In this document: positions 3,023 to 40,399 of the stretch, piece after piece | Layout: each line of letters opens with the position of its first letter | Numbering within the stretch: position 1 is the first letter of the stretch | DNA from: a virus | Lineage: Duplodnaviria; Caudoviricetes | Virus record (IMG/VR): IMGVR_UViG_3300041964_000148 | Reading direction: 5' to 3' (one strand) | Length of the DNA: 64,000 nt | Notes under the pieces: generated by a model | What the model was told of the DNA's origin: nothing | Seen by the model: the letters and a program-made list of their open reading frames with translations, nothing else | The model's database searches: none | Position numbers and translations under genes: made by a program

Positions 3023-3409
3023 TTAATCTTCTGCTGGGAACTCTTGTTCTTTCATTACAGCCTGACCAACGGGATTGCCGTTGATATCGAGCAACCGACA
3101 AGCGGTCGCAATCGTAAGCTTACTTGCTAAATCTTCAAGAATTCGACAAGTTTCTGTAACTAGTGCAATCTGAGATGAAGTAGCTCGAATTGTGTTCCAG
3201 TTTGACTCCAGGTCATAAGGGAGTTCAGAAAAAGCAGCGTTGTCAGTCTCAATTTCAACTAACAAGCTAAGGCGTTCTCCTTTAGATAGTGAAAAAGAAC
3301 AAACACCCTCTTCTTTTCGATATTTAGTTGCAGTATCGAGAAGCATTTGAGCGATTACATCCTCAGAATCTGCGGATAGTTGGATGTTGATTTTGTCAGA
3401 TGTTGTCAT
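3023..3409 (-). CDS. Hypothetical phage protein
   Basis: ATGA-coupled to the upstream ORF; phage-typical IETDNAAF...DINGN.VG motif. Confidence 0.7.
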   Translation of the reverse strand: MTTSDKINIQLSADSEDVIAQMLLDTATKYRKEEGVCSFSLSKGERLSLLVEIETDNAAFSELPYDLESNWNTIRATSSQIALVTETCRILEDLASKLTIATACRLLDINGNPVGQAVMKEQEFPAED

Positions 3410-3951
3410 GATAAAATTCCAATGATTTTGCTAGTTTGTTGATCAAAGTGAGAAAGGTAGGAAGCAATTGCTTCTTGCTCCCCAATTGGAGGCTCGAAAA
3501 CAGGGAGGTTTTTTAGTGCTTCCACTGTCAGAGAGTTGGTCATGCTGACTTCTCTTCGGAGCCAATGTTGAGCAAAATGGCTGTTTAAATAAAACAACCA
3601 GAACGCAGTATTTTGAGATGGTAGGAGGTTTATAAGGATAAGAGAGTCAGCATTCTCTTGACCATATGAGGACTTAAAATCAAATCCTTTTTTTGTTACC
3701 AGGATATCCCATTTCTCGTTATCAACTGGGACAGGCTCTGTGTACCCTCTTGCATTATTCCAAGTTCCGTCCTTTTTCCAGATTCGTGGCAAACCTATAA
3801 ACCTGAATCGCTTTTGGTTCCAGTGGGCTGGGACTTGATTGATCCACTCTACTGATGTGGGACTCATTGGGACTAACGGATCTAATCCTTGGGAAAAGAC
3901 CTTGTGAGCGATCGCTTTGAATCGCTCTTTATAAAGACTTTTTATGCCCAT
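3406..3951 (-). CDS. Stand-alone half type I restriction specificity subunit (HsdS-like, single TRD)
   Basis: GLDPLVPMSPTSVEWINQVPAHW matches the HsdS conserved region (GLDP..PMKDSGVEWIG.IP.HW); PPIGEQEAIASYL matches the PP..EQ..I helix. Confidence 0.75.
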   Translation of the reverse strand: MGIKSLYKERFKAIAHKVFSQGLDPLVPMSPTSVEWINQVPAHWNQKRFRFIGLPRIWKKDGTWNNARGYTEPVPVDNEKWDILVTKKGFDFKSSYGQENADSLILINLLPSQNTAFWLFYLNSHFAQHWLRREVSMTNSLTVEALKNLPVFEPPIGEQEAIASYLSHFDQQTSKIIGILS

Positions 3952-4437
3952 TCTCGAATTCCTTTCGCATGGTTTTGCTTCAATGAAATTAGCTAACTTC
4001 AATGAAATTAGCTAACTTCATTGTAACATTTTGTACTCTATGTTTTTGTTGTTAGGCATTAACAAAAATTGCCCACCCTTTGAGTTAAAGGATGGGCAGA
4101 GGGGCAATAAAAATAGATATGATTACCCCTTGTTCTCTCAATTGTGCATCTATCGTTTAGGATAGCGCGGCAATTGAGAGAAGAGGGGTTTGGATAAGAA
4201 AAATACTGGTTAAAACAACCGTTTGTAATAGCGATCGCATAACGATTGCCGCGACAAACAACGCAAAAAACTTCTGATGCACCTAAGTACAATCCTTTCC
4301 AACCTGTGTGTATCCGTCCATCCGGATCGGCAGGGACACTGGCTTTTTCGTCAAACCTGCAATTGGTTGCGTACTACAGGTAAGCGGGGTGGCTTCTACA
4401 AAGTCTTTATACCTATATGTTATCACAAGTACACCCG

Positions 4438-4968
4438 CTAGAGCAAGTACTCAGAGGGCATATCTGTGAAGTCAGGGAATGGCTCACTATTAAGGGTTAC
4501 GCTATCCCTGAAAGCCTTCAAGCCTTGGTCAGATGAAAGTCCCCTGTATGCCCAGTAGCCAAAAGTCAGAAGGTTGGTTTCTCGGCTAATGTCCGCATCT
4601 GTGCCAAAACCTATGTTGATGGTGATGTCATTCCTGAACCTAGTTTGGGGTTCCAGCTCCACCTGTAAGGAGGTGATGCCGATTTTAACGGCTTGGTTCC
4701 ACCGCAGTATTTCTTCCCGCGCATGGTATTGGAAATACTTGGCGGATCTAGCTGTTAAGGCAACAAATAACTTGGGAGCCATTCCCATCGTTGGATGAAT
4801 AGGCGATCGCCCGTAGTCCAACAACAGCAAGTGCAGTATGCGACTCGCCACCACTGCCCCTGGGCGGGAAACAATATTCATCTGCCCCTGGGCGTCGTGG
4901 GGCGTGTACCACGTCCAATCCTGGCCGAGTGGAGAACTCAAGCTCTGACCCTCCTTTCTGGTAGCCAC
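4438..4968 (-). CDS. GPW/gp25-like baseplate wedge protein
   Basis: SRILHLLLLDYGRSPIHPTMG resembles gp25 I..IL.T..GER...P.FG; followed by EEILRW..I..LQV. Confidence 0.6.
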   Translation of the reverse strand: MATRKEGQSLSSPLGQDWTWYTPHDAQGQMNIVSRPGAVVASRILHLLLLDYGRSPIHPTMGMAPKLFVALTARSAKYFQYHAREEILRWNQAVKIGITSLQVELEPQTRFRNDITINIGFGTDADISRETNLLTFGYWAYRGLSSDQGLKAFRDSVTLNSEPFPDFTDMPSEYLL

Positions 4969-6041
4969 TCTGCACCGCCACGTCCGCGCCGTATCTTTAA
5001 AATATCTTCAATAAACTCTTGAAGCGCCTCCTCGATAGTATCAGCAGCCCTGTTTGAACTATAAGTAGCATCCTCGTCTAGGTCATGACCGTTTTCCCCT
5101 TTGCCGGGGAAAGGGATGCCATCAGGAAACTGTAGCTCTACACGATGAACTTGCTTCTTCCACCACCAAGCTCTTGGACGAGTCCAAGTAGCGACATAAG
5201 CTTCTGCCGTTCCTTGGTAGGTAGCCTCAGGTAGGTAAATTTCTATTTTCTTTTGGATAGTTGGCGATCGCACATAATCGGCGCTTCCAAATAGCAAATC
5301 CATCAAAAACACGCCTTTGTAAAATCCTCCGCTTTGGCTCCCTCCCAAGTCATCACGCCACAAGGAAAGGGATAGATGATCTTCGTACAGGGTAATGCCA
5401 GTTACCCTTTCTTCCGCTGGAAACCAGTGGCGAGGGAACATCTGCTCAATTGTAAACCAGCAGCTCCCTAACTTCCATGCCCGAATTCCGAGTTGAATTT
5501 GGTCTTCTCCTCCAACAATTACGCGAATCCCTAATCCCAGTCTGGAGCGGCTAATGATCTCGAATCTTAGATCCATAAGGGGCGTTGTGCGATTTTCCTC
5601 AGAACGCTCCCGGTATAAAGTAAACCAGCAGCGTTTGTAGAGCCAAACCCCCTCTTCCTTCCTTAAGTCTTGGGAATGAAAGCGAAAATAATTCTTCCAA
5701 GAAATAAGCCAGTTGCCGACATAGTGTAGCTTGCTTTGGAGTCTGAACAAGGGATGCGATCGCACTCGGAAATATTCATCCAAAGCAGCTTGAGACTTGC
5801 TCCAGAAGGAGAAAGCGAAGGCCATTGACTCCATGTCGGGGTGCAAGTCTATGTATTTATCAATCGATTTCGCGAACGTGTCGAAGGTGAAGTTCGGAAT
5901 ATTAAACATTTCCTCCAACTTTTGTTCATTCAACCCTAACTCCTTGTAAAAGGAAATGAACCAGCTTTTGGCACCTTCTCCGAATTGGTCGGGGGAAACT
6001 AATAGTTTCCAGTCTCGCATTTTCAACATAGATCCCTGCAC
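4938..6041 (-). CDS. Hypothetical protein
   Basis: 367-aa ORF in an operon with the HNH and gp25-like genes. Confidence 0.7.
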   Translation of the reverse strand: MQGSMLKMRDWKLLVSPDQFGEGAKSWFISFYKELGLNEQKLEEMFNIPNFTFDTFAKSIDKYIDLHPDMESMAFAFSFWSKSQAALDEYFRVRSHPLFRLQSKLHYVGNWLISWKNYFRFHSQDLRKEEGVWLYKRCWFTLYRERSEENRTTPLMDLRFEIISRSRLGLGIRVIVGGEDQIQLGIRAWKLGSCWFTIEQMFPRHWFPAEERVTGITLYEDHLSLSLWRDDLGGSQSGGFYKGVFLMDLLFGSADYVRSPTIQKKIEIYLPEATYQGTAEAYVATWTRPRAWWWKKQVHRVELQFPDGIPFPGKGENGHDLDEDATYSSNRAADTIEEALQEFIEDILKIRRGRGGAEWLPERRVRA

Positions 6042-6341
6042 CTAAGTTTTCTTTTTAATGGTCTTCCTGATCTTCTTATACTTCGCCGCTTTACCTAAAT
6101 TGCAAGCACGGCAGAGTGCCTGAAGGTTATTGAAAGCTGACGAACCTCCCTTGGAGACGGGGATTATGTGATCAACTTCCAGCCGCACTTCTTCGTCTTT
6201 ATCTTTATCTTTATCTTTAGGGGAAGCACCGCAAGCCTCGCAGCGAAAATTCGCTCTGGCAAATACGTCGTATCTTAGTCCCTCTGATATTGGGCGGCGC
6301 TTCACCTTGACTGGGCGCTTCTTCTTGGTTTTTGCTGCCAT
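6042..6341 (-). CDS. HNH endonuclease
   Basis: CEACG...LEVDHIIPVSKGG...NLQALCRACNLGK. Confidence 0.92.
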   Translation of the reverse strand: MAAKTKKKRPVKVKRRPISEGLRYDVFARANFRCEACGASPKDKDKDKDEEVRLEVDHIIPVSKGGSSAFNNLQALCRACNLGKAAKYKKIRKTIKKKT

Positions 6342-6370
6342 TTACGCGATCGCTCCTAGAAATAGCTTCC

Positions 6371-7000
6371 ATGCCTTATATTTGTTGTGGTGAGTTGATT
6401 ACAAGCATGACAATAGCCGCTCGATGCGTCCTGTGCGAATACGAATATTCTCAAGCAGAGGTGGCTCAAGGATTGAAGCACTGCCCTGGATGTGGCAGTA
6501 CCGGGATACCTTGCAACCCTGCTTTTGATCTTACTGTTAATATTAACTGGCAAGAACTGCGAATATTGGCTGTCTGGGCTGAGAACTGGGCGCGGCAACG
6601 CAGTGAGAACCAAGACTACGAGGGTTTAAAGGCCGTGCATTGCATTGTTCATCGATTAGAAGAACAGTACCCGGATCTGTATCCCCTTACACTTGCCGGA
6701 GAAGTTCGCAAGATGCAGGAGGCTGGTCATCTGGTGGAGTCGGATATGGATGTTCGCGTACACCTGGTGTCGAGAGCCACGCGATCGCCTGAGGATACGG
6801 AGAAAATCAAGGCAGCTATTCTTGATGCCGCTCGTCACGGCGTCACAATTGTTCGCAACGAAACGTCAGGGCTTGAATCCGCCGGAATGTACCAGCTAAT
6901 CAAGGCGTTACGCGATCGCCCTCAAGTTTCAGGAAAAGAGCGAATCCTTAATCTCCTTGACCAACTGGAAGAAGAAATTCGTCGTCACGGAGAACCGTGA
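6371..7000 (+). CDS. Zn-ribbon hypothetical protein
   Basis: CVLC and CPGCG pairs; start uncertain (6371 or 6407). Confidence 0.65.
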   Translation: MPYICCGELITSMTIAARCVLCEYEYSQAEVAQGLKHCPGCGSTGIPCNPAFDLTVNINWQELRILAVWAENWARQRSENQDYEGLKAVHCIVHRLEEQYPDLYPLTLAGEVRKMQEAGHLVESDMDVRVHLVSRATRSPEDTEKIKAAILDAARHGVTIVRNETSGLESAGMYQLIKALRDRPQVSGKERILNLLDQLEEEIRRHGEP

Positions 7001-7329
7001 TGGAAAATAAACTTCCTACGACTGAGCGATTGGCGAGGGCACTCGAATTGGCGAACGATTCTCGGCTGGCTCAAATGATTGAGCGGGCAAGAGATGGTTA
7101 TTATGACGATTACAAAAGTAAATTGGCGACGCCGATTACTCAGTTGATTCATGACTTGCGATCGCTCGGTCTTGAGGCATTGGCACGACGAGCAATGGAT
7201 GGAGAGTTTGACGCCACATTGGAAGAGTCGGGGGACTGGTTTGAAAAAGAGGGGCAATTCCTCGTGTCTCCTGAGATGATGCAGGCTCTGCAACTGGACA
7301 CCCCAAATCCAAAGGGTTTTTCAAAATGA
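6997..7329 (+). CDS. Hypothetical phage protein
   Basis: Translationally coupled; GYYDDYKS.LATP...GEFDAT.EE motif. Confidence 0.75.
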   Translation: MMENKLPTTERLARALELANDSRLAQMIERARDGYYDDYKSKLATPITQLIHDLRSLGLEALARRAMDGEFDATLEESGDWFEKEGQFLVSPEMMQALQLDTPNPKGFSK

Positions 7330-7619
7330 CCAACACTCAAAAACTGGCGTATCTTGCCGCCAGACAGCTCTATGAAAAGTTAGATGCCGCGTATCCTGGG
7401 CTTCGCTCAGATGAACAGGCTAAGTTTTCTACGCCGGCGTATCTTAAATGGGCGCTAGTTCAGATCTGTTCTTTTGCGGGGTTCTGGGGTGAGGATAAGT
7501 TGCATCGCCATCTAGGGTGGTGTCAAGGCATTAGTAATTGCTTGGAATTGACGACAGTCCAGGAAGAACGCGATCGCATTCGTTCTCTAAAAGCAGAAAT
7601 AGCAGGTGAAAGAAGGTGA
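7326..7619 (+). CDS. Hypothetical protein
   Basis: ATGA-coupled ORF; K.HRHLGWCQG motif. Confidence 0.7.
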   Translation: MTNTQKLAYLAARQLYEKLDAAYPGLRSDEQAKFSTPAYLKWALVQICSFAGFWGEDKLHRHLGWCQGISNCLELTTVQEERDRIRSLKAEIAGERR

Positions 7620-8665: not shown

Positions 8666-8670
8666 AACAA

Positions 8671-8709
8671 AACACCCAAGATACTGTATTTAACAATATC
8701 TTGGGTGTT
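8671..8709. terminator. Terminator hairpin, near-identical copy at about 9771-9810
   Basis: AACACCCAAGATA...TATCTTGGGTGTT in both places. Confidence 0.75.
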
Positions 8710-8722
8710 AATTAATAAGAGA

Positions 8723-9073
8723 TTATCTAACGTGGAAAATATGGTTTGGGAACCATTTTGCCCAGCGGAGAAGAATGTTCAAGATGTGTCCTGCATTCCC
8801 TGGAGTTGCTTTCCAGTAATCCGGATCTTGCTCTATTCCTAGAGCTTCTATACCTTTATTCAAGAGGAGAATTGATTCATCTCCCGTCTTCCCGTTAAGC
8901 CACCATAGACCTTCCGGATGGAATATCCTAAAGAGTTCACTGTAGTTATATGTAACGTTTAATGAGGCATCATTACTGCCTCCTTCAACGTATGTTCCTC
9001 CGTCTGCGTGGGCAACTGGAAGTTGCGCGGTTTCTTCTGTTTTTGGATCAACCATTGTTACTTCGTAACTCAT
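8723..9073 (-). CDS. Hypothetical phage protein
   Basis: LNVTYNYS...DYWKATPGNAG motif; AGCAAAAC leader. Confidence 0.8.
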   Translation of the reverse strand: MSYEVTMVDPKTEETAQLPVAHADGGTYVEGGSNDASLNVTYNYSELFRIFHPEGLWWLNGKTGDESILLLNKGIEALGIEQDPDYWKATPGNAGHILNILLRWAKWFPNHIFHVR

Positions 9074-9236
9074 GTTTTGCTCTGAATAGATTGAACGATA
9101 ACCGCTCTTTTATATCTCAATTTTAACCTACTTGTTATAACAAGTCAATTAACAGAAATCCCCTGCACCACTACTGGTACAGGGGATTTGTTGGGTGTTT
9201 AAGAAAGACTTATTCACCTATAAACTACAGCACTAA

Positions 9237-9695: not shown

Positions 9696-9845
9696 TATGT
9701 TGTCCTTGTTAATGATTGTGGTTTTGCAATTATTAGCTATACCTCATTATAACGTAGGCTGTTACAGTAAAACACCCAAGATACTGTTTTGTTAACAGTA
9801 TCTTGGGTGTTAGTTAAAGGGTTTGAATTAGGTGTCTAGTGGTTA

Positions 9846-10910: not shown

Positions 10911-10962
10911 TTCTTCTCTCCTAAAGTAATGTCCATCACGGTTCTCCGTGATGGATGCGTTT

Positions 10963-22220: not shown

Positions 22221-22302
22221 AGTTTTGCTTTAAAATTCTCCTTTCATTGTAACAAATACACAAAAACAAACCCCACCACAGATATCTATGATGGGGTCAA
22301 AA

Positions 22303-24252
22303 TCAAACGAAGAAATAGCCAGGAATTGCACTCGTAAACCTTTCTACGGGGTCATACTTTAACAAGTATTCCCTGGATATCGCATCCATATCCCGTAGTT
22401 GTTGCCGCTCCTTCTCCCCAATTTCCGTATCGGTAGAGAGGAGGATTACTTGGTCTGATGCTACCGGGAAGTAGCGTTCCAAGAGGTTCGTGCGGTGGGA
22501 CGAATCTAATCGCCCCAGGGGAGTATCGATCGCAACTGGAATTTTCCTTCCAGATAACCGAGCTAGTCCCCAGAGGAAGGCGATCGCAAGTAGCTGCTTT
22601 TCCCCCGCCGATAGTCGATGCTTGGGGACGAACGTCCCGATTTGGTCATATAAACTCATGCTAAACGTTTCTACATCGATGGCGATGCGGTGAACCAGGT
22701 CTGTTTTGCGAAGAAGATACCGGAAGCATTCCGTCACTTCTATTTCCAACTTGTTGATTTTCCTCAAGGTAATTTTTTCCTTGAATAATGCCAGTGTGCT
22801 TTTGGCTCTGGCGATCGCATCTAAGTTATGCTTTGTCTTTTCTACCTTCAAGTGTTCATCGGTAAAGGCTTCTAATTGGTTCTTAGTTGCCTTTAACTGG
22901 CGCTCCACTTGATTGTATTGCTGCTGCTTCAGTTCTCGTTGGGCGATTAACTGGGCAGCAGCTTTTTGCGTTGCTTTGACGACTCCTTCGAGATCTTGGT
23001 ATAGCTCTGGCGACGCCGCCGTCGCAAGTTCTCTGTCGAGGAAGTTAATATCCTCTTTGAGTTTTTCGAGTTGTTCTATGTCGGCTCTAGCCTTGTCCAC
23101 GAAGAAGTTCAGCTCATAACCGAGGATGGTGTTGAGCCGAAGAGTCGCTTCCTCTGACGAGTGCAACCATTCTTCTCCTTCTGCAAAGCAGGATTGCTCC
23201 TTTAGGAAAGATTGGACTTTATTGAGTTGCACCTGGGCTAAAGACAATTCAGCCAAATAGTCCAAGAGTAGGAGATCTCTCTCCTCGATGACTGCCCGCG
23301 CTGCTCTTGATTGAGCAAGGGGTACTTCAACTTGGATTTGGGCTTGGGCTTGTTGCAGTAGGGGAGCAATTAGCATCAGGGGTAATGCCCCGGCAGCTAA
23401 TTCCCGTAGGTCTTGTCGAGTATCGTCAAGCTCTTGGGTGAGCTTGCTTTGTTCAGACTCTAGATGAACGCGATCGCCTGCAATACGACCGCCTTGAGTT
23501 ACGAATTTGTCCAAGGCTTGCTGCTGCCGAATTTCGGCAGCTTTCATCTGTCCATCAATGCTGGCTAGATCTTGGGCAACAACGTCGCGGGCATGACCTT
23601 GGGTTTTTAAGGTAGATTCAATCTCCTCTAGTTCTGCCAACTCAGAAGTGTTGGCAAGTTCCTTACGCTTACGAGAAGCGAAAATATCCAGGTCAGCAGA
23701 TAGTCTTTCAGCGAGTTCTAGGCCCAGAAGGGATTTAATTGCACTCACTAAAATTGGGGGTGGGGTGTCGAGTTCGGCTAGCTCTTTTACCTGTTCACCG
23801 TCGAACAGGAACAAAGTAGAGATTCCCAAAGGGAAAAGGTTTTCCAGGTACTCGTCCCAGGTCTTTGTGATCGCCTTGTCGGGCCAGTCGTCAACTAGCA
23901 CCTCTAAGGTATCTTTTTCGTCCCCCACTGCCCAGTAGCGGATAACCCGGACGATGGTTTCCTCATGGTCAACGACTAATTTAATCGCCAACTCGATCCG
24001 GGTCTTTTCTCCTGTCACAGCGTGACGGTTAATGCACTCTCCCAAGAAACTGCTGTAAGGCAGTGCGCCACGGGTAGAGCATTGGGCGCGATGCCCGTAT
24101 AATGCAAGTCGAATGGCGTCCACGAGAGTAGTTTTCCCTCCTCCGTTCATCCCGCCAAAAAGAACAATGGTGCCGGATTCAGGACTAAGATTGATGGTTT
24201 GCCTTCCTAAATAGGGACCGAAGTTTTGTAGAACTAATTCAGTGAAAATCAT
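22303..24252 (-). CDS. dndD: DNA phosphorothioation ATPase DndD
   Basis: MIFTELVLQNFGPYLGRQTINL, Walker A GMNGGGKTT, LFLFDGEQVKELAE, coiled coil, LSAGEKQLLAIA, IDTPLGRLDSSHR, YFP.AS.QVILLSTDTEI. Confidence 0.92.
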   Translation of the reverse strand: MIFTELVLQNFGPYLGRQTINLSPESGTIVLFGGMNGGGKTTLVDAIRLALYGHRAQCSTRGALPYSSFLGECINRHAVTGEKTRIELAIKLVVDHEETIVRVIRYWAVGDEKDTLEVLVDDWPDKAITKTWDEYLENLFPLGISTLFLFDGEQVKELAELDTPPPILVSAIKSLLGLELAERLSADLDIFASRKRKELANTSELAELEEIESTLKTQGHARDVVAQDLASIDGQMKAAEIRQQQALDKFVTQGGRIAGDRVHLESEQSKLTQELDDTRQDLRELAAGALPLMLIAPLLQQAQAQIQVEVPLAQSRAARAVIEERDLLLLDYLAELSLAQVQLNKVQSFLKEQSCFAEGEEWLHSSEEATLRLNTILGYELNFFVDKARADIEQLEKLKEDINFLDRELATAASPELYQDLEGVVKATQKAAAQLIAQRELKQQQYNQVERQLKATKNQLEAFTDEHLKVEKTKHNLDAIARAKSTLALFKEKITLRKINKLEIEVTECFRYLLRKTDLVHRIAIDVETFSMSLYDQIGTFVPKHRLSAGEKQLLAIAFLWGLARLSGRKIPVAIDTPLGRLDSSHRTNLLERYFPVASDQVILLSTDTEIGEKERQQLRDMDAISREYLLKYDPVERFTSAIPGYFFV

Positions 24253-24322: not shown

Positions 24323-24523
24323 TTATGCCTCTTGATGATTCTCTGTTTGTCCCAATAGCCAGTCTCGTTCTTCGGGGGAGATGTTTGTGTACTTCAGTAG
24401 TTCACTCACTATCTGCCCAAAATCATCTGACTCTAGGTAATCGGTCGAAGTTAACTGCGACATAAGCTCAACTACCCTCAAATGGTTAGTTAACAGTTCT
24501 GCTTTTCGTTTCAAAGTAATCAT
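24323..24523 (-). CDS. Small hypothetical cassette protein between dndB and dndD
   Basis: Has its own TGTTACAAT promoter and AAGCAAAATCATG leader. Confidence 0.7.
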   Translation of the reverse strand: MITLKRKAELLTNHLRVVELMSQLTSTDYLESDDFGQIVSELLKYTNISPEERDWLLGQTENHQEA

Positions 24524-24622
24524 GATTTTGCTTAATTCAAACATACATTTATTTCATTGTAACAAATTTACATAAGCAAAACGCCCACCCCGCAAGGGAT
24601 GAGCGTCTTTTATTAGGCTTTC

Positions 24623-25759
24623 TTAGCCTTTGTTTCTTTTCGCTTTCAACAAGTCACTGCAAGCATTCTCTAGCTCAACTTCCTCTTTCGAGAAAGCCTT
24701 AACTGGCACACCTAACTTGAACTTCAAGTAGATGGCAAACCTTTTGATATTTTCGGAATCAGTAATGACTTTTTCCTCGTCGAGAATTCGACCTTGCCAG
24801 TCTGCATTAGACTTGCTCCAGTCAATTGAGTTGAGAGGTCCGAAGAACTTCATTAGTTCCTCTGGCTTCTTAGTTGAGCTAATCATTTTGCCTACGGACG
24901 CGATCGCATCCAGGAAGATTGCGAGACCACAAACATGGTCTTGCCGGATCATCCGAGGCTCTATCTTCTTCTCGACCAACTCATTCCACTGGGGAATGTT
25001 GGCAACAAGTGCATTCCAGAAGGCAATGCAGAAAGCTTTATCCTCTTCATGGGACTTACCTGGACGAATCGCCTCATGTACTTTGTAAACCCACTTGAGA
25101 GTCAAGAGCTTGGGGGAAGTCTTGGGTACTGTCCCTTTCTCAAATTCCGTCCAGTTTTTCAGGAATTCAACCTCCTTCACCACTTCAAGGGTGAAGTTGT
25201 TGCTAGGCGTGTCCTTATAAAGAACCTGAAGGCTGCCCTCCAAATTCCGAACATTAGCGTTAATCGCTGCAAAGGCTTTTTGGTTCCGCCTTAATCCCGC
25301 ATCTATTATGAAATAGACAGGAATCATTTCATTGTGCAATTCCAGAAGTCCGATCTCCTTAGCGATCTTCAGTAACTTTTCACATGACAGACGACGGTGT
25401 TGACCATCGATTAATGTTAACAGCGCGTCAATCGCGATGTGCAACATTCCGCACCTGAAAAACTCCTTGTTTGGGACTTCAAACTCCACTTCCCCATTGA
25501 TACTGGCGATTAATGGAGGAATGATATGATCCTCAAAATCTGCTACCACATAGTCGGCAATTTCTTGCGCGTGTTTGGGCTTTGGCGTACGTTGCGATCG
25601 CTCCTCAAATGGGAGTTCAAGATAGTCCAATTTGAACACTTGAACTATCTCGGCATATTTCAGCCAGCAGACGTACGCTTCTTTGCCCGCTTGAATGCCT
25701 CTTGCCGCAGGAAAGCTGCGGCGGGGGTCGTCAGGACGTAATATCATTATTAGTGGCAA
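24623..25759 (-). CDS. dndB: DndB / DGQHR-domain protein
   Basis: FPAARGIQAGKE.Y, ERSQR, IDGQHRR, F..IN, T.FEK.T....S.KL.TL, IDWSKSNADWQGR. Confidence 0.85.
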   Translation of the reverse strand: MPLIMILRPDDPRRSFPAARGIQAGKEAYVCWLKYAEIVQVFKLDYLELPFEERSQRTPKPKHAQEIADYVVADFEDHIIPPLIASINGEVEFEVPNKEFFRCGMLHIAIDALLTLIDGQHRRLSCEKLLKIAKEIGLLELHNEMIPVYFIIDAGLRRNQKAFAAINANVRNLEGSLQVLYKDTPSNNFTLEVVKEVEFLKNWTEFEKGTVPKTSPKLLTLKWVYKVHEAIRPGKSHEEDKAFCIAFWNALVANIPQWNELVEKKIEPRMIRQDHVCGLAIFLDAIASVGKMISSTKKPEELMKFFGPLNSIDWSKSNADWQGRILDEEKVITDSENIKRFAIYLKFKLGVPVKAFSKEEVELENACSDLLKAKRNKG

Positions 25760-26656: not shown

Positions 26657-27960
26657 TCAATCAAGTTTACCTTGAATCAGGGCTTTTGTTACCCTAGTAA
26701 AAATATAACCGCCCCTCTCAAGACATGACAACATTCCCCCAACAACAGCGATCGCATTCGCCTTATGAATCCGTTGCCCGTTCACCGGATGACAAGGATG
26801 GAGGGATTTCCAGTATTCCGCCAACTCGCTAATCCTTAAATCTCCTTCAAAAGGGGAATCAGCGCGACGGCGACGGAACTATCCAGAATGAGGGGCTGTG
26901 GGTTGATTGGGAGGTATGCATTGATATCAAAAGGGGAAAAGTCGGCGATCGCACTAATTAATGATTGTTAAACCGCATCACACCGGAGCAGTGGGTGCAA
27001 CTTCGCAATTGGATCGTTATCTATTCTCCGAATTTGCTCCCTATACCACACCAAAAATCGAGGAGCCGATGGATGGGATGGAACAGTTCAAATAAATGTA
27101 GCTGCTGTTCCTTTGGCAAATCCAAAGCCCAGGCTAATACATTCCTTGCCCCAGACTCAAATAGATCCGGCAGGTGCCATTGATTCCAGTTCACCATATC
27201 GATAAATTCAAGCCCAGATTCCTTGAGTAGGCGAATAGATCGGTGATTGTAAAACCGCGATCGCCTGGAACAAGTAGTTCATTAGGACAGCGTGTTTGGA
27301 TATGTTGCCCTTCGTAGGAGAATTCCAGGTCTTCTTGAGATCAACGTTGGGCTTGAGAGAACGCATCACTCCCACTACCGTTGGATCTCTTCTTCTTCCG
27401 GGTCTGATTCATCAATCCCATCTATTCCAAATATTTCCTGCGCTCGGTAGTAATGGAAGCGTTGGAATAAGCTATGCAGATTCGCTCGAATAATGCCGTC
27501 ACGTTTAAGTCTTTTTTTAATGCCATCAATGCCTCTGCTGGGTCCGGCATCAGGTACAGCATTTCATCGCAGTTATATAGTCAAATTGTTCGTCAGAAAT
27601 ATCAAACAAAGACTGTTGTCGAAATTCCGCTTCTAGTTTGTGATGGGCGAACCTTTTTCGGGCAATATCCAGAGAGCGATCGCTTAGGTCTATACCAACA
27701 ACCTTTGCCCCAGGATTAGCGAGGGCGAGGAGTAGGGTTTTGTATCCACTCCCGCAGCCAACATCTAATATAGTCCTGCCCTCTGGCTCAATGATTCTTC
27801 GTTTCGGCGGTAAAATACAGTTGCAAGGCTGTGGTAATAGAGAGCTGCCCGATCTGTTGGGAGGTTTTCAACTTCTACTACTGGTACGGATATATCAAAT
27901 TGTTGTTGGATACGCTGGAAAAGCTCTGTGTCGTTTATGTCAGAATCAATATCATTACTT
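26657..27960 (-). pseudogene. Cyanobacterial class I SAM-dependent methyltransferase, multiply frameshifted
   Basis: Piecewise translation gives RIQQQFD, ILDVGCGSGYKTLLLALANPGAKVVGIDLS, CDEMLYL, GIIRANLHS, MVNWNQW, LHLFELFHPIHRLLDFWCG. Start uncertain. Confidence 0.8.
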
Positions 27961-34364: not shown

Positions 34365-36593
34365 ATGAAGTCTCAAATTCAGTCTTCTTGGTTAGAATAT
34401 CACACTTGGGAAACCTCCCGGTGGAGATCGGCGATAAAAAGACATAAGATGTCAGCGCCGATGCGAGTCGCATTGAAGCATCGCATCATTACGACTGACA
34501 CAAGCGTGTTGGATTTCGGATGTGGGTATAACACCGATGCGATCGCCCTTAAAGAGATGGGGATTAAAGCAGAGGGCTTCGACCCTTACTATCGGAATGA
34601 CCCATCTTTATTGCAACCCGCCGACGTGGTGAGTTGCATCTACGTTCTCAACACAATTGAACGAGCCTGGGAAATCCCAGAAGTAGTTCAGTTCTGTTGG
34701 GAATTAGCCCGCGAGTCAGTTTTCCTGGCAGTTCGCCCAGGTCACGACAAGGACGAATACACAAAGCTGGACACGCACCAGCATTACTGGAAGCCCAGCA
34801 GTTGGCAAAAGTTCATTCAAGAAGACCTCGGCTACGATGCCGAATTTCCTGAATTATGTATCGCGCTGATACAAAAACCCTTAACAATTTGTTACAATGG
34901 AAATGTACACGACAATATTTCAACCACAAGCAATATGAACATGAACGTTAAAGACTTGAGAAAGTTCTTGTCAGTTGTGCCTGACAAAGAGCAAGACGGT
35001 ACAACCCCCATCACATTGGAGTACGAGCATGGGATGCTCCATCTGACGTATCGAAAGAATGGGATGCTCATCAAATTGCCCTATGCCCTGAATGGGGCAG
35101 ATGATAAATGGTCAACAATTGTTGACCATGCCGCCTTATTTAAGGCGATCTCATCGATCAAAAGCACAGAGGGTATAAGCCTCTCGATCGACAAGGGTGA
35201 CTTAATTGTCACCGTTGGCAAAGATAACAGGAAAGTCTCGGTCAGTCCGTGGGGAAAACAACTCCACGATTTTGATCCAGAGGAGATGGAACTTGATAGC
35301 CAATCTATCGTTTGTTTAGAAAAGCATTGGGCTGACCTTGTAGCTGCGGCAAAGGTAGCAAGATCAAATAAAAAGGGAGTAAATCCCGAAATTGTGGGAA
35401 AGGCAGTACAAATTGAAGCTTCTGGCGAGTTCCTTTCCGTCTCAGCTTGGTCTGAGTCGGTCACGACTCACAGGACGTTTCCTCTTCAAGGGAAACTCAC
35501 TGAGAACAGAAGCTTTGTTCTCCCGCTAGAGGCTATCGAAGCCATAAGCGCAATGAAGTCATCACAAATTACGATGACTCTCAACTATACCTTCGATCAA
35601 TTAATGATTGAAACCGATATTGGATATGTCCTTGTAGACATACCACAAACTAAGTATCCCTTAACGGACGGGATAGGAAAAGGTGGCTTCCACGAAGCCA
35701 CCGTAGAGGTGAAGAAGAAAGACCTCTTGGCGGCGATCAAAGCTGCCGTTGAGGCAGGAGCCAAGAATGTCACCCTGGTATTCGACAACGAGATAATTGT
35801 TGTGGAAGCCGCAAAAACGAAGAAGCAGGAAATCCCTGCCGAAATTGCCGAAGGCAAGAAGAAATTCACTGCCAGCGTCAAAATCGCAGCGGGCGCCCTC
35901 TTAGACGCGCTAAAAGTTATCGGCGCGGCAAAAGTGTTCCTGCATTTCCCATCCGCTGGAAACGCAACCAGCTTTTTAATGAACACCGTAACGGGTGCTA
36001 TGTATGTATTTGCCGCCACTGTCAAGGTGGCAGCTTGCGTAATAGAAACAGCAGCAGATGTGCTGCAAAATCCTGAACCGAAGCGAGAAGTTATCGTGGC
36101 AGGGAAAAATAGTGACGGCTCCGGTTTTGTGCTAGAAGCCGTCGAAGCTTCCCCCCTCCAGAAGGATCTCACTCCTGAAGAGGTGGAAGAAAACCGCGCC
36201 AAACTTGAGCAAAAGTATGGCAGCAAAAGTATGGCTGATGTCGCAGAAGCCGCACTGGAAGTCGCTGATCTCCGCGAAAAGGTTCGCGGAATCACCGAAG
36301 ATATCAATACGGAAATTGAGAAACTGCGATCGCTTCCTCAGGATGTCGCAACAGTTCAGCGTATCGCCGAGTTGCTAGTTCTCTACAAGAGGCTATCAAG
36401 TATAGTCTCGGACGCAGAGAACGCTGAGGCGGCTCTCGACCTAGATACATATGTCTCAGAGTTCTCCTTGGAGGGATTAAAGGAAATCTCTTTCAAGTTG
36501 ACTTGGTGGGGTGGTCGCACCGTAACCTTCCTCTTTGCGGAGGAAGCCCAATGGTTGCCTCGAATGAGGTTCACTGAGCCAGTCGCCCACTAA
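34365..36593 (+). CDS. Fusion ORF: dnd-associated methyltransferase domain (aa about 20-170) plus DnaN-like domain (internal start about 34934)
   Basis: SAIKR..MSAPMRVAL, VLDFGCG, GFDPYY, ADVV...YVLNTIE match the DNA-phosphorothioation-associated MTase. From MNVKDLRKF it is paralogous to 31745..33556. Confidence 0.7.
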   Translation: MKSQIQSSWLEYHTWETSRWRSAIKRHKMSAPMRVALKHRIITTDTSVLDFGCGYNTDAIALKEMGIKAEGFDPYYRNDPSLLQPADVVSCIYVLNTIERAWEIPEVVQFCWELARESVFLAVRPGHDKDEYTKLDTHQHYWKPSSWQKFIQEDLGYDAEFPELCIALIQKPLTICYNGNVHDNISTTSNMNMNVKDLRKFLSVVPDKEQDGTTPITLEYEHGMLHLTYRKNGMLIKLPYALNGADDKWSTIVDHAALFKAISSIKSTEGISLSIDKGDLIVTVGKDNRKVSVSPWGKQLHDFDPEEMELDSQSIVCLEKHWADLVAAAKVARSNKKGVNPEIVGKAVQIEASGEFLSVSAWSESVTTHRTFPLQGKLTENRSFVLPLEAIEAISAMKSSQITMTLNYTFDQLMIETDIGYVLVDIPQTKYPLTDGIGKGGFHEATVEVKKKDLLAAIKAAVEAGAKNVTLVFDNEIIVVEAAKTKKQEIPAEIAEGKKKFTASVKIAAGALLDALKVIGAAKVFLHFPSAGNATSFLMNTVTGAMYVFAATVKVAACVIETAADVLQNPEPKREVIVAGKNSDGSGFVLEAVEASPLQKDLTPEEVEENRAKLEQKYGSKSMADVAEAALEVADLREKVRGITEDINTEIEKLRSLPQDVATVQRIAELLVLYKRLSSIVSDAENAEAALDLDTYVSEFSLEGLKEISFKLTWWGGRTVTFLFAEEAQWLPRMRFTEPVAH

Positions 36594-36662: not shown

Positions 36663-36682
36663 GCTTTGGGAACGCAAATCAC

Positions 36683-37321
36683 CTAAAACTTATCCGTCTC
36701 ACAGCCCCAAACATCCCATCCAGGACGTTCTTGCCTTGCGAATAAGTCAATTTTGGAGCCACCTAACGCTTCAGATACGCGATCGCACAATTGATAGAAT
36801 TCTTCAGGTTTCTGGCTATGCTCCCTGCGAGGAGACAGAATGGCGTTGGGTACATTGCGGATTCCTAATGACATAAATGTCTTAGGCTTCCCTTTTGTTG
36901 CTACGAGGAAATGCTCAGTACAATTCCTCCCGTAGTGACCGATGCCGATCCGAATCTTCGGGTCTTCTTCTGTTGATGCCTTGGTTGTCTTCAGCCAGGT
37001 ATAGATTTGCTTGTAGGCAAATCCCCAGGATTCTATACACCGAAATCCTAATGGCAAGTGCTGGTTAGTAACCCAGAGGAATAAATACGCATTGTCAGCA
37101 GCGATCGCACCTACTGGCATTTTCACAATATCCTCATCACTTAAGTTTGGATAAGGTGTCCGCCCTCTGTGAGACTCATCAGTCTCTCGAAGATTAAATT
37201 GCCAGGGAGGATCAATCGAAATGATTGAGTATTCTCCAGATGGCAACGAAGGGAAAGGAGTCAGCAAATTTACAGCTATATTAAGCTTGAGCTGACCCCT
37301 GGCATCGGTTGGTAGGTACAT
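36683..37321 (-). CDS. MT-A70 family adenine methyltransferase
   Basis: IISIDPPW, LFLWVTN, WGF.Y, G.G.Y.RN.TEH.L, REHSQKPEEFY, IDLFARQERPGWDVWG. Confidence 0.92.
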   Translation of the reverse strand: MYLPTDARGQLKLNIAVNLLTPFPSLPSGEYSIISIDPPWQFNLRETDESHRGRTPYPNLSDEDIVKMPVGAIAADNAYLFLWVTNQHLPLGFRCIESWGFAYKQIYTWLKTTKASTEEDPKIRIGIGHYGRNCTEHFLVATKGKPKTFMSLGIRNVPNAILSPRREHSQKPEEFYQLCDRVSEALGGSKIDLFARQERPGWDVWGCETDKF

Positions 37322-38868: not shown

Positions 38869-39025
38869 GGTTATTCCTTAGTTAAGTATTTGAGGCGCTT
38901 TGAAGAGAACTGCCTCGTTATCCTTCAATTATAACAATAAATACGTCAATCTGTCTATGCCTATTGCTATTTAATACAAAGTACGTCATAATAGTATATA
39001 GAGAGTAATAAAGCTTAAGCAAATC

Positions 39026-39316
39026 ATGCCCAAAATAATTGAAAGCGCCATTGATGCCGTGCATCACTGGAAAGTTCTTTATGTTATCGCTTGCGGCTTA
39101 ACCGCATTAGCGATATGCGAAACCATTAGTAGCTTGCATTACAGCAAGCCAGGGCGGCTAATCTGCAACACAGAACCCATCTGGGAGCTAGCCCTAAGTA
39201 ACGTGTCTTGGTGCGTATTCTCACTGCTTTTCCAAGTTTTTATGCCGCAATCGTTGGCATGGATTCTAGGAGAACTCGCATCGGAAGCTTTCCTTCTTTG
39301 GTTGCGATCATTCTAA
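39026..39316 (+). CDS. Small membrane protein
   Basis: 2-3 hydrophobic segments; AAGCAAATCATG leader. Confidence 0.65.
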   Translation: MPKIIESAIDAVHHWKVLYVIACGLTALAICETISSLHYSKPGRLICNTEPIWELALSNVSWCVFSLLFQVFMPQSLAWILGELASEAFLLWLRSF

Positions 39317-39397
39317 AGCAAAGCCCTCATTGATGTATTTCAATGAGGGCTTTGTGCTTTTGTTACAATGGAAGAGGAAGTTTAGCAAAATAAATAA

Positions 39398-40399
39398 TTG
39401 AAATTAATTAATCACAAGGATTATGACCAAGTGGTCATTTCGTTTTGTGGGAAGGATTCTCTCAGTTCCCTGCTAACGTGCTTGGAACTAGGCTTCCCAC
39501 CTGAGAAGATTGAACTCTGGCATCATTTGGTGGACGGAAACGGACCATCATTCATTGACTGGCCTTGTTCTGGTGGCTATGCGAAATCTGTCGGCAAAGC
39601 GTTTGGCATCCCAACTTATCTCAGTTATAGGGACGGGGGTTTTAAAGCTGAACTCCTAAGGGAAAACCGCAAGAGTGCCGCCACCTACTTTGAGACCCCA
39701 GAAGGTATGATCAAAGTAGGTGGAGATCGCGGTAAAGTCCTTACTCGACGACAATTCCCTCAGGTTGCACAGATAAAGTCGGGCCGTTGGTGCAGCGCTT
39801 TAGAGAAGATTGACGTTGGACGCACAGCACTTAATAATCAAGAGAGGTTCAAGGGTTCTCGTACGCTATTTGTAAGCGGCGAGAGGGCTGCTGAGTCCAA
39901 ACAACGAGCATCGTATCATGAGTTTGAAATTCATGAGTGCGATGCTCGGACAAAATGTGGTCGTTATATCGATCACTGGAGACCAGTCCACAAGTTGTCT
40001 ACAGAAGACGTGTGGCGCATTATTGGTCGCCACAAAGTCAACCCGCATCCGTGCTACAGAGCGGGTTTTGGAAGATGTTCCTGTGCGATCTGTATATTTT
40101 CTGACTGTGATCAACTTGCATCGGCAAGGCTAATAATGCCGGAGCAGTTTGCTGAGATGGTTTCTCTTGAGCGAGAGTTCAATAAAAGCATCCAGTATAA
40201 AGAGAGAACGCGAAAAGGTCATGAGCCAGAGATTATCAATATCTGGCTAGAAGAACGCGCAAATAGGGGAGTCCCTTACTCAGGGATCAACCTGCTCACA
40301 ATAATGGAACTTCGGGACGAGAATTGGGATTATCCCATCTTTCTCAACCACTGGCAGATGCCGCTAGGGGCATCTGCCAGTCAGAACGGACCTAGTTGA
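39398..40399 (+). CDS. PAPS-reductase-family (PP-loop) protein of mobile elements
   Basis: VISFCGKDS, IELWHHLVDG, RWCS..EKID, SGERAAES..RA, WRPVH, HPCY..GFGRCSCAICIF. Confidence 0.85.
   Translation: MKLINHKDYDQVVISFCGKDSLSSLLTCLELGFPPEKIELWHHLVDGNGPSFIDWPCSGGYAKSVGKAFGIPTYLSYRDGGFKAELLRENRKSAATYFETPEGMIKVGGDRGKVLTRRQFPQVAQIKSGRWCSALEKIDVGRTALNNQERFKGSRTLFVSGERAAESKQRASYHEFEIHECDARTKCGRYIDHWRPVHKLSTEDVWRIIGRHKVNPHPCYRAGFGRCSCAICIFSDCDQLASARLIMPEQFAEMVSLEREFNKSIQYKERTRKGHEPEIINIWLEERANRGVPYSGINLLTIMELRDENWDYPIFLNHWQMPLGASASQNGPS

What the first reader, a model, noticed from the sequence alone, without database searches (positions are those of the whole stretch)
3406..40399. A phage-like genome carrying disassembled parts of phosphorothioate and restriction-modification systems, mostly as separate cassettes
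Seen: full-length dndB and dndD in operon order, but the dndC slot holds an unrelated small cassette gene and a terminator follows dndD where dndE would be. A dnd-associated MTase domain (34365), a PP-loop PAPS-reductase-family gene (39398), an MT-A70 methylase (36683) and a half HsdS (3406) lie elsewhere, mostly behind the element's own promoter. Established: PT modification needs DndA/IscS plus DndCDE; DndB represses the dnd operon; DndC belongs to the PAPS-reductase superfamily. Inference: these are retained subunits, not decay. They could form an anti-defence kit (DndB silencing host dnd genes, DndD poisoning or redirecting host DndCDE) or a non-canonical DNA sulfur-modification pathway in which the PAPS-reductase protein replaces DndC.
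Basis: partly seen in the sequence, partly recalled or inferred. Interest (0 to 1): 0.85.

Follow-up and report, generated by a model that had tools for sequence, protein, structure and literature searches.

The report
Phage dnd module missing dndC
A large cyanobacterial phage-like element carries intact, selectively maintained dndB and dndD genes from a host DNA-sulfur (phosphorothioate) operon, but has lost the sulfur-inserting gene dndC that two sister phage lineages still keep.

Summary
DndB (24623-25759), DndD (22303-24252), a half HsdS, an MT-A70 methylase, a dnd-type methyltransferase domain and a PAPS-reductase-like gene are all present. Most sit behind a repeated TTGTTACAAT promoter. 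No dndA/C/E/FGH or hsdM/R lies in the window.

Related metagenome contigs change the reading in four ways:
- Two sister lineages carry MTase-dndB-dndC-sp-dndD with a canonical DndC, so this phage derives from a fuller module. dndC has been lost repeatedly.
- The "unrelated" 73-aa gene is the truncated N-terminal half of a small protein (sp) that sits just upstream of dndD in most relatives.
- dndB and dndD are under purifying selection (dN/dS about 0.13-0.14) and keep their catalytic motifs, so they are retained, not decaying.
- A 425-aa methyltransferase next to dndB looks broken only because of a local patch of single-base indels. Other assemblies of the same phage have it intact.

No lineage has dndE, although cyanobacterial hosts do. 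The PAPS-reductase-like gene belongs to a common phage family and has a degenerate PP-loop, so a DndC replacement is unsupported.

Most likely this is a host-dependent counter-restriction module, but the mechanism is inferred. The scan has seen "dndC-less" loci before, on cyanobacterial chromosomes, not on phages.

The parts
24623..25759 (-). dndB (DGQHR / ParB-superfamily protein), intact
   Evidence: Pfam DndB 249 bits. TIGR03233 232 bits, below its cut-off. PADLOC DndB 247 bits. It is 70-78% identical to the copies in L001 and L006 and only about 30% to host DndB. dN/dS is 0.13.
24323..24544 (-). sp73: truncated N-terminal half of the small protein family (139-212 aa) that sits immediately upstream of dndD in relatives
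   Evidence: tblastn and alignments to L001, L007, L010/L021 and L024. The family has only 5 clusters among 5.8 billion proteins. The model has no PDB fold match and is not RHH/DndE-like.
22303..24252 (-). dndD (ABC/SMC-like ATPase), intact
   Evidence: TIGR03185 619 bits. Walker A, signature, Walker B and H-loop columns are invariant with host DndD. No CxC hook motif in the sequence. dN/dS is 0.14. It falls in a monophyletic phage-like clade apart from the cyanobacterial DndD.
24545..24622 (-). Terminator-like hairpin plus TTGTTACAAT promoter between dndB and sp73. This is the place where sister lineages carry dndC.
   Evidence: Sequence; motif count; L024 and L114 gene order.
22221..22302 (-). 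Terminator-like hairpin plus TTGTTACAAT promoter after dndD. Cyanobacterial operons have dndE at this position.
   Evidence: Sequence. DndE lies directly after dndD in 3 of 5 host genomes checked.
26699..27947 (-). 425-aa class I SAM methyltransferase, the most constant neighbour of dndB in this phage family. It is frameshifted about 15 times in the window.
   Evidence: tblastn and alignment to the intact L006 copy. The gene is intact in L011, L012 and L016, which are otherwise 100% identical to the window. The family also occurs away from dnd genes in Leptolyngbya.
34365..36593 (+). dnd-cluster-type methyltransferase domain (residues about 18-159) fused to a beta-clamp-like body
   Evidence: TIGR04096 97 bits and phrog_947. 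Homologues of the N-terminal domain lie downstream of dndD in 26 of 80 cyanobacterial dnd loci. The fusion is conserved in L006.
36683..37321 (-). MT-A70 family DNA adenine methyltransferase (DPPW motif)
   Evidence: Pfam MT-A70 122 bits, phrog_359 212 bits, PADLOC MTase_II 186 bits.
39398..40399 (+). Phage-type PAPS-reductase-like protein (IbrA/phrog_424 kind) with a degenerate PP-loop
   Evidence: Pfam 30 bits; phrog_424 72 bits; DndC only E = 4.5e-3. It is 38% identical to Pseudoalteromonas phage KB12-38 'PAPS reductase'. The PP-loop is FCG-KDS against SGGKDS; RWC and CxxC are kept.
3406..4002 (-). Single-TRD (half) HsdS with no hsdM or hsdR in the window or in 9 kb of left flank
   Evidence: Pfam Methylase_S 30 bits. 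PADLOC Type I specificity models match profile positions about 200-245 and about 310-385. No HsdM/R family among the other ORFs. Left flank from L112.

Best explanation
The stretch is the accessory, cassette-built arm of a large tailed phage or phage-like element of filamentous cyanobacteria. Contigs carrying it reach 118-245 kb, and a tyrosine integrase lies just outside the window.

It carries a reduced copy of a cyanobacterial dnd operon. Two sister lineages still hold the fuller phage module: methyltransferase, dndB, dndC, small protein sp, dndD. That module has no dndE and no dndA. In this phage dndC has been deleted and sp cut to its N-terminal half. dndB and dndD remain intact and are selectively maintained.

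Alone they cannot make phosphorothioate (PT). I infer that they act as a host-dependent module. Even the fuller phage versions lack DndE and DndA, so the module has always needed host factors. Here the phage DndD ATPase, modulated by the ParB-like DndB, would use host DndC, DndE and IscS to control PT marking of replicating phage DNA. That would be a counter-restriction function.

The neighbouring genes fit this theme. The window has MT-A70, the dnd-type MTase-clamp fusion and the half HsdS. Relatives have hsdM/hsdS and a Lar-like gene.

Shown: gene identities, loss of dndC, lack of dndE, purifying selection and origin from cyanobacterial dnd genes. Inferred: cooperation with host Dnd proteins and the benefit to the phage.
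For: Identity and integrity:
- DndD scores 619 bits on TIGR03185 and DndB 249 bits on Pfam.
- All ATPase motif columns are invariant between the phage and host copies.

Ancestral module:
- L024/L025 read MTase-DndB-79aa-DndC-177aa-sp-DndD, and L114 reads MTase-...-DndB-...-DndC-sp-DndD.
- L007 DndC scores 600 bits on TIGR03183.
- DndC and DndD co-diverge between L024 and L007 (75% and 73% identity), and both are about 57% identical to Coleofasciculus.

Repeated loss of dndC:
- L021 DndD is 95.5% identical to L024 DndD, yet L021 has a 322-aa gene where L024 has dndC.
- The window/L006 and L001 lineages also lack it.
- The window shows no dndC trace.
- Phage-clade DndC clusters occur only on contigs of 46 kb or less, while the window's DndD is on a 245,281-bp contig.

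Selection:
- dN/dS is 0.14 for DndD and 0.13 for DndB between the window and L006, and 0.105 for DndB between L001 and L003.

No DndE:
- Host genomes have DndE at 122-139 bits, mostly just after dndD.
- An HMM built from these finds nothing in the window or in seven phage-like loci, including the dndC-bearing ones.

Anti-restriction setting:
- L021 carries hsdM plus a full hsdS, and L007 carries a Lar-like gene, beside the module.
- The window carries MT-A70.

Phage nature:
- Tape measure protein at 268 bits, several PHROG families and HNH genes.
- Integrase in the left flank.
- No relative above 57% identity among the species-representative genomes scanned (GTDB, 185,579 species).
Against: - No host is known, so I cannot show that the host has dndC/dndE.
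- The phage DndD is only 55-58% identical to cyanobacterial DndD. Published analysis (PMC10853773) says DndD co-evolves with its DndE, so cross-complex formation is uncertain.
- DndB is described as a repressor of dnd operons (PMC4507180), which fits interference better than cooperation.
- Only 64 kb plus 9 kb of a replicon that may reach 245 kb could be read. Earlier scan follow-ups on cyanobacterial chromosomes found the 'missing' dndC hundreds of kb away.
- The conserved 425-aa methyltransferase and sp have no role in this model.
Confidence: 0.4

Rival explanations
1. DndB and DndD have a dndC-independent activity of their own. A DNA-scanning ABC ATPase plus a ParB-like NTPase/nuclease would serve another modification, or a prophage-carried exclusion or defence function. 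The co-conserved methyltransferase and/or sp might take part.
For: - dndC was lost at least three times while dndB, dndD, sp and the 425-aa MTase stayed.
- Selection is purifying after the loss.
- PMC10853773 reports many DndD-centred systems without PT genes and proposes other modifications.
- The integrase and AIPR gene in the flank suggest a temperate element that could carry defence genes.
- Archaeal proviruses with Dnd defence genes are published (PMC11705971).
Against: - The 425-aa MTase is a UbiE-like class I enzyme. In Leptolyngbya its family sits beside peptidases and a paralogue, not beside dnd genes.
- No nuclease or effector gene is linked to the pair.
- No DndE partner exists, which the published DndD-core model requires.
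Confidence: 0.25
2. Anti-defence by interference. Phage DndB represses the host dnd operon, and phage DndD titrates or misdirects host DndC/DndE, lowering or scrambling host PT marking.
For: - DndB is a known repressor of dndBCDE (PMC4507180).
- Phages are known to counter Dnd systems by other means (PMC12345140).
- The island holds anti-restriction genes in relatives.
- The window's dndB has its own promoter preceded by two clusters of 11-nt-spaced repeats that look like operator sites.
Against: - DndD keeps all catalytic motifs, which an inert decoy would not need.
- The phage DndB is only about 30% identical to host DndB, so shared operator specificity is doubtful.
- Sister lineages with dndC would be making PT, not blocking it.
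- The repeat motif upstream of dndB is absent from relatives.
Confidence: 0.15
3. The system is complete after all. Canonical dndC and dndE, and perhaps dndA, lie elsewhere on the same replicon, scattered like the other cassettes.
For: - Only about 73 kb of a contig of up to 245 kb could be read.
- Cassette shuffling is evident: dndB and dndD are separated by one to three variable genes in relatives.
- Earlier scan follow-ups found split dnd operons in cyanobacterial chromosomes.
Against: - A search of 5.8 billion proteins with the phage-clade DndC found only two phage-type clusters. All their members are on contigs of 46 kb or less. None is on the 245-kb or 118-kb contigs that carry this phage's DndD.
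- There is no dndC or dndE in the window or the left flank.
Confidence: 0.08
4. Non-canonical sulfur pathway. The 39398 PAPS-reductase-like protein replaces DndC and works with DndD.
For: - It is a PAPS-reductase superfamily member that keeps RWC and CxxC cysteines like DndC.
- Non-Dnd PAPS-reductase proteins (BrxP) do make PT (PMC12914056).
- Phage KB12-38 also combines this protein with a DndB-like gene.
Against: - Its best matches are the common phage family phrog_424.
- The PP-loop has lost one glycine and its serine relative to the closest homologue.
- The gene is 15 kb from dndD in a separate cassette on the other strand.
- It has no homologue in 80 host dnd loci.
- PMC10853773 argues that no close PP-loop ATPase can substitute for DndC.
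Confidence: 0.07
5. The dnd genes are functionless leftovers on their way to loss.
For: dndC is gone and sp is truncated here. sp is also gone in L006.
Against: - dN/dS is 0.13-0.14, the frames are intact and the motifs are conserved.
- The apparent decay of the neighbouring MTase is confined to one patch that is absent from other assemblies of the same phage.
Confidence: 0.05

Closest known systems
Cyanobacterial dndB-dndC-dndD-dndE(-TIGR04096 methyltransferase) phosphorothioation operons (e.g. Coleofasciculus, Microcoleus, Nostocales)
   Same: - DndD and the sister lineages' DndC are 55-60% identical to these.
- The gene order dndB, dndC, dndD is kept.
- The N-terminal domain of the 34365 protein matches the methyltransferase found downstream of dndD in 26 of 80 such loci.
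   Different: - No dndE in any phage lineage and no dndC in this one.
- The phage DndB is only about 30% identical to host DndB.
- A phage-specific small protein precedes dndD.
- The genes are split into separate promoter-terminator cassettes.
- The host-type methyltransferase domain is fused to a clamp-like protein.
DndBDE triads and DndDE dyads lacking DndA/DndC (Rakesh, Aravind and Krishnan 2024, PMC10853773)
   Same: A DndD-centred gene set with DndB and without the PT-chemistry genes. That paper raises the same question of what such sets do.
   Different: Those sets are defined by the co-evolving DndD-DndE pair. Here DndE is absent, and the carrier is a phage-like element, not a cellular genome.
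Complete Dnd/Pbe clusters on archaeal head-tailed proviruses (PMC11705971)
   Same: dnd genes carried by a tailed virus genome.
   Different: Those are full clusters (DndA-E plus PbeA/C) read as defence cargo. This one is a reduced two-gene remnant in a bacterial virus.
Phage PAPS-reductase-like proteins (phrog_424; IbrA-like), often with ParB/DndB-like partners, e.g. Pseudoalteromonas phage KB12-38
   Same: The 39398 protein is 38% identical over its full length to the KB12-38 protein. That phage also has a DndB-like gene and methylases nearby.
   Different: The function of the family is unknown. Here the PP-loop is degenerate and the gene is not adjacent to dndB.
Phage-encoded orphan methyltransferases and other anti-restriction genes (MT-A70 methylases, Lar, orphan type I M+S)
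   Same: The window has MT-A70. Relatives have hsdM/hsdS and Lar beside the dnd genes. The logic is self-protective marking.
   Different: Use of Dnd components for this purpose has not been described in the papers I could search.

Membership tests
DndABCDE phosphorothioate modification system | DndC PP-loop/[4Fe-4S] sulfurtransferase | tested here: not met
   tblastn with the phage-clade and host DndC finds nothing in the window. The 39398 protein scores only E = 4.5e-3 on TIGR03183. No phage-clade DndC lies on the contigs that carry this phage. The rest of the replicon could not be read.
DndABCDE phosphorothioate modification system | DndD ABC/SMC-like ATPase | tested here: met
   TIGR03185 619 bits against a cut-off of 246, full length. 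Catalytic columns are invariant.
DndABCDE phosphorothioate modification system | DndE (double ribbon-helix-helix DNA-binding partner) | tested here: not met
   An HMM from five cyanobacterial DndE proteins gives no hit in the six-frame window or in the phage-like loci (best E = 3.4). It finds DndE in a host locus at 2e-76. The sp model is not RHH-like.
DndABCDE phosphorothioate modification system | DndA/IscS cysteine desulfurase | tested here: not met
   No aminotransferase-class-V family among the window ORFs. It could be supplied by a host, as is usual.
DndABCDE phosphorothioate modification system | DndB (DGQHR) regulator | tested here: met
   Pfam DndB 249 bits and DGQHR domain 154 bits. 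It falls below the equivalog cut-off of TIGR03233 (232 against 328).
DndABCDE phosphorothioate modification system | PT linkages in the DNA | not testable with these tools
   Needs LC-MS/MS, iodine cleavage or PT-seq on virion DNA.
DndD-DndE core systems without PT genes (DndBDE triad) | Operonic DndD-DndE pair | tested here: not met
   The genes after dndD differ in every relative (177, 388, 112, 127, 212, 116 and 327 aa), and none matches DndE.
PbeABCD / CxC ABC-ATPase systems | CxC zinc hook in the ATPase, plus an HKD-nuclease/SF2-helicase PbeA | tested here: not met
   The top PADLOC hit is a PbeC model (825 bits against 701 for DndD). However, the protein has no CxC motif, its cellular relatives sit next to DndC, and no HKD or helicase family is in the window.
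Type I restriction-modification | HsdS specificity subunit | tested here: met
   Half-size only: one TRD flanked by conserved regions.
Type I restriction-modification | HsdM methylase and HsdR nuclease | tested here: not met
   None among the window ORFs or in the 9-kb left flank. L021 HsdM and HsdS have no match in the window.
TIGR04096 dnd-associated methyltransferase | Full-length (478-position) match above cut-off | tested here: not met
   Only profile positions 3-154 match, at 97 bits against a cut-off of 150. Homology of that domain to the host dnd-locus methyltransferases is confirmed.
Phage PAPS-reductase-like family (phrog_424 / IbrA-like) | PAPS_reduct domain with an SGGxDS PP-loop | tested here: inconclusive
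   The domain matches (72 bits). The PP-loop reads FCG-KDS where the closest homologue has SGGKDS.

The most novel reading that the evidence does not exclude
A family of large cyanobacterial phages carries a minimal, host-parasitic Dnd module. In it DndB plus DndD alone, without phage DndC or DndE, are enough to benefit the phage. They would either plug into the host's DndC/DndE/IscS to PT-mark phage DNA, or act through an activity of the DndB-DndD pair that does not involve sulfur at all. Repeated independent loss of dndC with retention of dndB/dndD would then be the first natural evidence that this pair has a selectable function of its own.
Probability: 0.3. Interest if true: 0.75.

Novelty: new variant of a known kind. 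Interest (0 to 1): 0.55.

Why it matters
What DndB and DndD do apart from supporting DndC chemistry is an open question in the phosphorothioate field. Comparative work has flagged many DndD-centred loci without PT genes but offers no experimental handle.

This phage family gives a natural series: dndC-plus and dndC-minus relatives with up to 95% identical DndD. That makes the question testable by simple complementation and PT measurements.

It would also add Dnd components to the list of host defence parts that phages carry for their own use. Finally, the series shows that dndE is dispensable on the phage side.

Tried and rejected
- Complex prediction of the full-length small protein (L007 sp) with its cognate DndD gave no verdict (score 0.00). 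This is not evidence either way.
- sp as a DndE substitute: the AlphaFold model (pLDDT 77) is helical with a beta-beta-beta-alpha C-terminal domain. It has no PDB match at E <= 0.001 and no RHH.
- The RHH-like 138-aa and 167-aa proteins downstream (21109-21525, 20613-21116) as DndE: only weak RHH hits (E 0.025-0.07). L006 has a DnaJ-domain gene in their place, and the DndE HMM does not match them.
- The 425-aa methyltransferase as the recruited modifier:
  - the structure model was too poor to search (pLDDT 59);
  - it has no DNA-methylase-type family hits;
  - a cellular homologue is not dnd-linked.
- A "pseudogene beside dndB" as proof of decay: rejected, because the indel patch is absent from other assemblies of the identical phage.
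- The phage and plasmid collections have no nucleotide match. IMG/VR has no relative of this DndD.
- The whole genome is not held, and the metagenome records could not be scanned.
- Rfam and tRNA scans of the window found nothing.

Full report
**What is in the window**

- DndB, 24623-25759, minus strand: Pfam DndB 249 bits and a DGQHR domain at 154 bits. It falls below the equivalog cut-off of TIGR03233.
- DndD, 22303-24252, minus strand: TIGR03185 619 bits over its whole length.
- The top PADLOC hit for DndD is a "PbeC" model. However, the protein has no CxC hook motif, and its cellular relatives sit next to DndC. It therefore belongs to the DndD clade.
- Between the two genes lies a 73-aa ORF. 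It has its own terminator-like hairpin and a TTGTTACAAT box.
- After dndD comes another hairpin plus T-run and TTGTTACAAT, then an unrelated 177-aa ORF.
- TTGTTACAAT occurs 14 times in the window against 0.12 expected, so the cassette layout is real.
- The half HsdS (3406-4002), the MT-A70 methylase (36683-37321, DPPW present), the methyltransferase-clamp fusion (34365-36593) and the PAPS-reductase-like gene (39398-40399) are also confirmed.
- The other 42 ORFs of the first 48.7 kb hit only SNase, HNH, DUF7227, an HTH family and a HipA-like kinase.
- There is no dndC trace by tblastn.

**What kind of element this is**
- No genome is held for the window.
- A tape measure protein (268 bits), several PHROG families and HNH genes support a tailed phage.
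- Exact protein look-ups show the same sequence on at least 23 metagenome contigs, the longest being 117,735 and 245,281 bp.
- Window 1-11839 is 100% identical to one of them.
- The 9 kb to the left of the window hold a tyrosine integrase, an AIPR protein and a TnpB. They hold no hsdM and no dnd gene.
- The closest cellular DndD proteins are from Coleofasciculaceae, Microcoleus and other filamentous cyanobacteria, at 51-58% identity.
- No species-representative genome holds anything closer.
- The phage, plasmid and IMG/VR collections hold no relative. Among 50,697 phage records, DndD-like matches come only from three unannotated gut contigs and one Salmonella contig.

**Relatives change the picture**

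Six DndD proteins at 66-97% identity form a monophyletic clade apart from the cyanobacterial ones. Their contigs have the same cassette style. The gene orders are:

| Locus | Gene order |
|---|---|
| L006 (97% to window) | MTase425, TnpB, DndB, DndD, DnaJ-domain protein |
| L001-L003 (66%) | MTase430, 61 aa, DndB, 148, 308, sp, DndD |
| L021 | hsdM, hsdS, MTase429, DndB, 82, 322, sp, DndD |
| L024/L025 | MTase429, DndB, 79, DndC, 177, sp, DndD |
| L114 (L007/L008 lineage) | MTase441, ..., TnpB, DndB, 45, 145, DndC, sp, DndD |

- In L007/L008 a Lar-like gene precedes DndC.
- The L007 DndC is canonical: TIGR03183 600 bits against a cut-off of 290.
- DndC and DndD have diverged in step. Between L024 and L007, DndC is 75% and DndD 73% identical, and each is about 57% identical to Coleofasciculus.
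- The simplest history is a single capture of host dndC and dndD, followed by repeated loss of dndC.
- One loss is very recent. L021 and L024 share 95.5% identical DndD, yet only L024 has dndC.

**The 73-aa gene**

It is not an arbitrary cassette. It aligns with the N-terminal half of a 139-212-aa protein that lies directly upstream of dndD in L001, L007/L114, L010/L021 and L024.
- Only L006 lacks it.
- The family has five clusters in a 5.8-billion-protein collection, all from these elements.
- It has no homologue in 80 host dnd loci.
- Its model (pLDDT 77) has no PDB match and is not a ribbon-helix-helix protein.
- Its role is unknown. The window's copy lacks the well-predicted C-terminal domain.

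**Retention or decay**

dN/dS between the window and L006, both dndC-less, is 0.14 for DndD and 0.13 for DndB. For DndB between L001 and L003 it is 0.105. Deeper pairs are saturated at synonymous sites, with dN 0.21-0.25. Walker A, signature, Walker B and H-loop columns of DndD are invariant across phage and host copies, and DndB keeps DGQHR. Both genes are therefore under selection without a neighbouring dndC.

I first read a broken 425-aa methyltransferase beside dndB (26699-27947, about 15 single-base indels against L006) as decay. That reading does not hold.
- L011, L012 and L016 are 100% identical to the window from 21323 to 26230 and carry the gene intact.
- Every difference lies in 26231-27519. 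These are 18 one-base indels, mostly in short runs, and a handful of substitutions.
- That pattern fits a local sequencing or assembly error far better than evolution.

**dndE and the rest of the pathway**

Five cyanobacterial genomes all have a canonical DndE (122-139 bits). In three of them it lies directly after dndD. An HMM built from them recovers DndE in a host locus at 2e-76. It finds nothing in the six-frame window or in seven phage-like loci, including those with dndC. The genes after dndD differ in every relative. The phage module therefore never carried dndE or dndA near dndD, so even the dndC-bearing versions must lean on host factors. This is the main reason I favour a host-dependent mode of action for the reduced version.

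**The other parts**
- The N-terminal domain of the 34365 protein has homologues 1-5 kb downstream of dndD in 26 of 80 cyanobacterial dnd loci, at 33-35% identity. It is a genuine dnd-neighbourhood methyltransferase domain, here fused to a clamp-like body. The fusion is conserved in L006.
- The 39398 protein belongs to the common phage family phrog_424.
  - Its best characterised-genome relative is in Pseudoalteromonas phage KB12-38, at 38% identity. That phage also has a DndB-like gene and methylases.
  - The window protein reads FCG-KDS where the homologue has the SGGKDS PP-loop.
  - Nothing links it to DndD.
- The 425-aa methyltransferase is a UbiE-like class I enzyme. It belongs to a roughly 100-cluster family that also occurs in Leptolyngbya, next to peptidases and a paralogue and away from dnd genes.
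- The half HsdS has no hsdM within reach. L021's hsdM/hsdS have no counterpart in the window.

**Comparison with the literature**
- Rakesh, Aravind and Krishnan (PMC10853773) describe DndBDE triads and DndDE dyads without DndA/C. They argue that no other PP-loop enzyme can stand in for DndC and that such systems may do something other than PT. Their defining DndD-DndE pair is not met here.
- Yuan et al. (PMC12914056) take dndC plus dndD as the minimal PT set and show that BREX type 4 BrxP makes PT.
- Complete Dnd clusters on archaeal proviruses are published (PMC11705971).
- Known phage counter-measures to Dnd use a kinase/shutoff protein (PMC12345140).
- I found no paper describing phage-borne dndB/dndD or a dndC-plus/minus phage series.
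- Earlier notes of this scan describe "dndC-less" cyanobacterial loci that turned out to be split operons. That warning applies here, because most of the replicon is unread. Against it, phage-clade DndC clusters exist only on contigs of 46 kb or less, and none is on the contigs that carry this phage's DndD.

**Verdict**

Retention under selection is shown. An anti-restriction setting is plausible from the neighbours. The PAPS-reductase replacement idea is unsupported.

This is a new variant of a known kind. The mechanism stays inferred. My leading model is a host-dependent Dnd module (0.4). The rivals are:
- an independent DndB-DndD function (0.25);
- interference with host Dnd (0.15);
- missing genes elsewhere on the replicon (0.08);
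- a PAPS-reductase pathway (0.07);
- functionless leftovers (0.05).

Noticed in passing
window 26231-27948: A patch of about 20 single-base indels, mostly in short homopolymers, plus a few substitutions. The flanks are 100% identical to independent metagenome assemblies of the same phage. It breaks a 425-aa methyltransferase and the neighbouring 101-aa ORF. It is most likely an assembly or sequencing artefact of the window's source.
   Followed up: yes
window 28953-30113 and 40673-41833 (minus), with 30114-30340 and 41834-42060: Two 91% identical 386-aa RRXRR proteins match the N-terminal half of RNA-guided IscB, and Pfam finds no HNH domain (IsrB-like). The roughly 220 nt just upstream of each ORF are about 97% identical, while sequence further upstream is unrelated. 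That is what an omega-RNA scaffold with a variable guide would look like. No Rfam family matched.
   Followed up: partly
window 25819-25898 and 25998-26054: Upstream of dndB lie two clusters of an 11-nt-spaced TTAG(C/T)CTAAAC-type repeat with 13-14-nt inverted repeats, about 150 bp apart. They look like operator or ParB-type binding sites. The motif is almost confined to this spot in the window and is absent upstream of dndB in relatives.
   Followed up: partly
window 22303-25759 compared with L006: Synonymous divergence from L006 is 0.11 in dndD but 1.1 in dndB. A recombination breakpoint therefore lies in the dndB-dndD spacer, exactly where sp and dndC come and go.
   Followed up: partly
window 31745-33556 and 34365-36593: A 603-aa protein is a paralogue of the clamp-like body of the 742-aa methyltransferase fusion. 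L024 has one homologue that matches both, at 52% and 23%. TTGTTACAAT at 34889 lies inside the fusion ORF, so the clamp part may also be made alone.
   Followed up: no
L112 12029-12991 (about 1.3 kb left of window position 1) and 18329-19546: A tyrosine integrase, and further out an AIPR abortive-infection protein and a TnpB, lie just outside the window. The element may be temperate, or this may be its border.
   Followed up: no
window 20613-21116 and 21109-21525: Two overlapping paralogous small proteins (36% identity) have ribbon-helix-helix-like N-termini and a shared C-terminal PRQLSIDPLNDIF(E/D)RHYG motif. L006 has a DnaJ-domain protein in their place.
   Followed up: partly
L021 3151-5734 and L007 1145-1396: Relatives carry an orphan type I hsdM plus a full-length hsdS, or a Lar-like restriction-alleviation gene, directly beside the methyltransferase-dndB-dndD block.
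   Followed up: partly
L006 7365-8558, L007 75-1076, L114 3061-4428, L024 20150-21403: TnpB (OrfB_IS605) genes are inserted at different points of the dnd island in different relatives. This suggests that IS200/605-type elements help reshuffle these cassettes.
   Followed up: no
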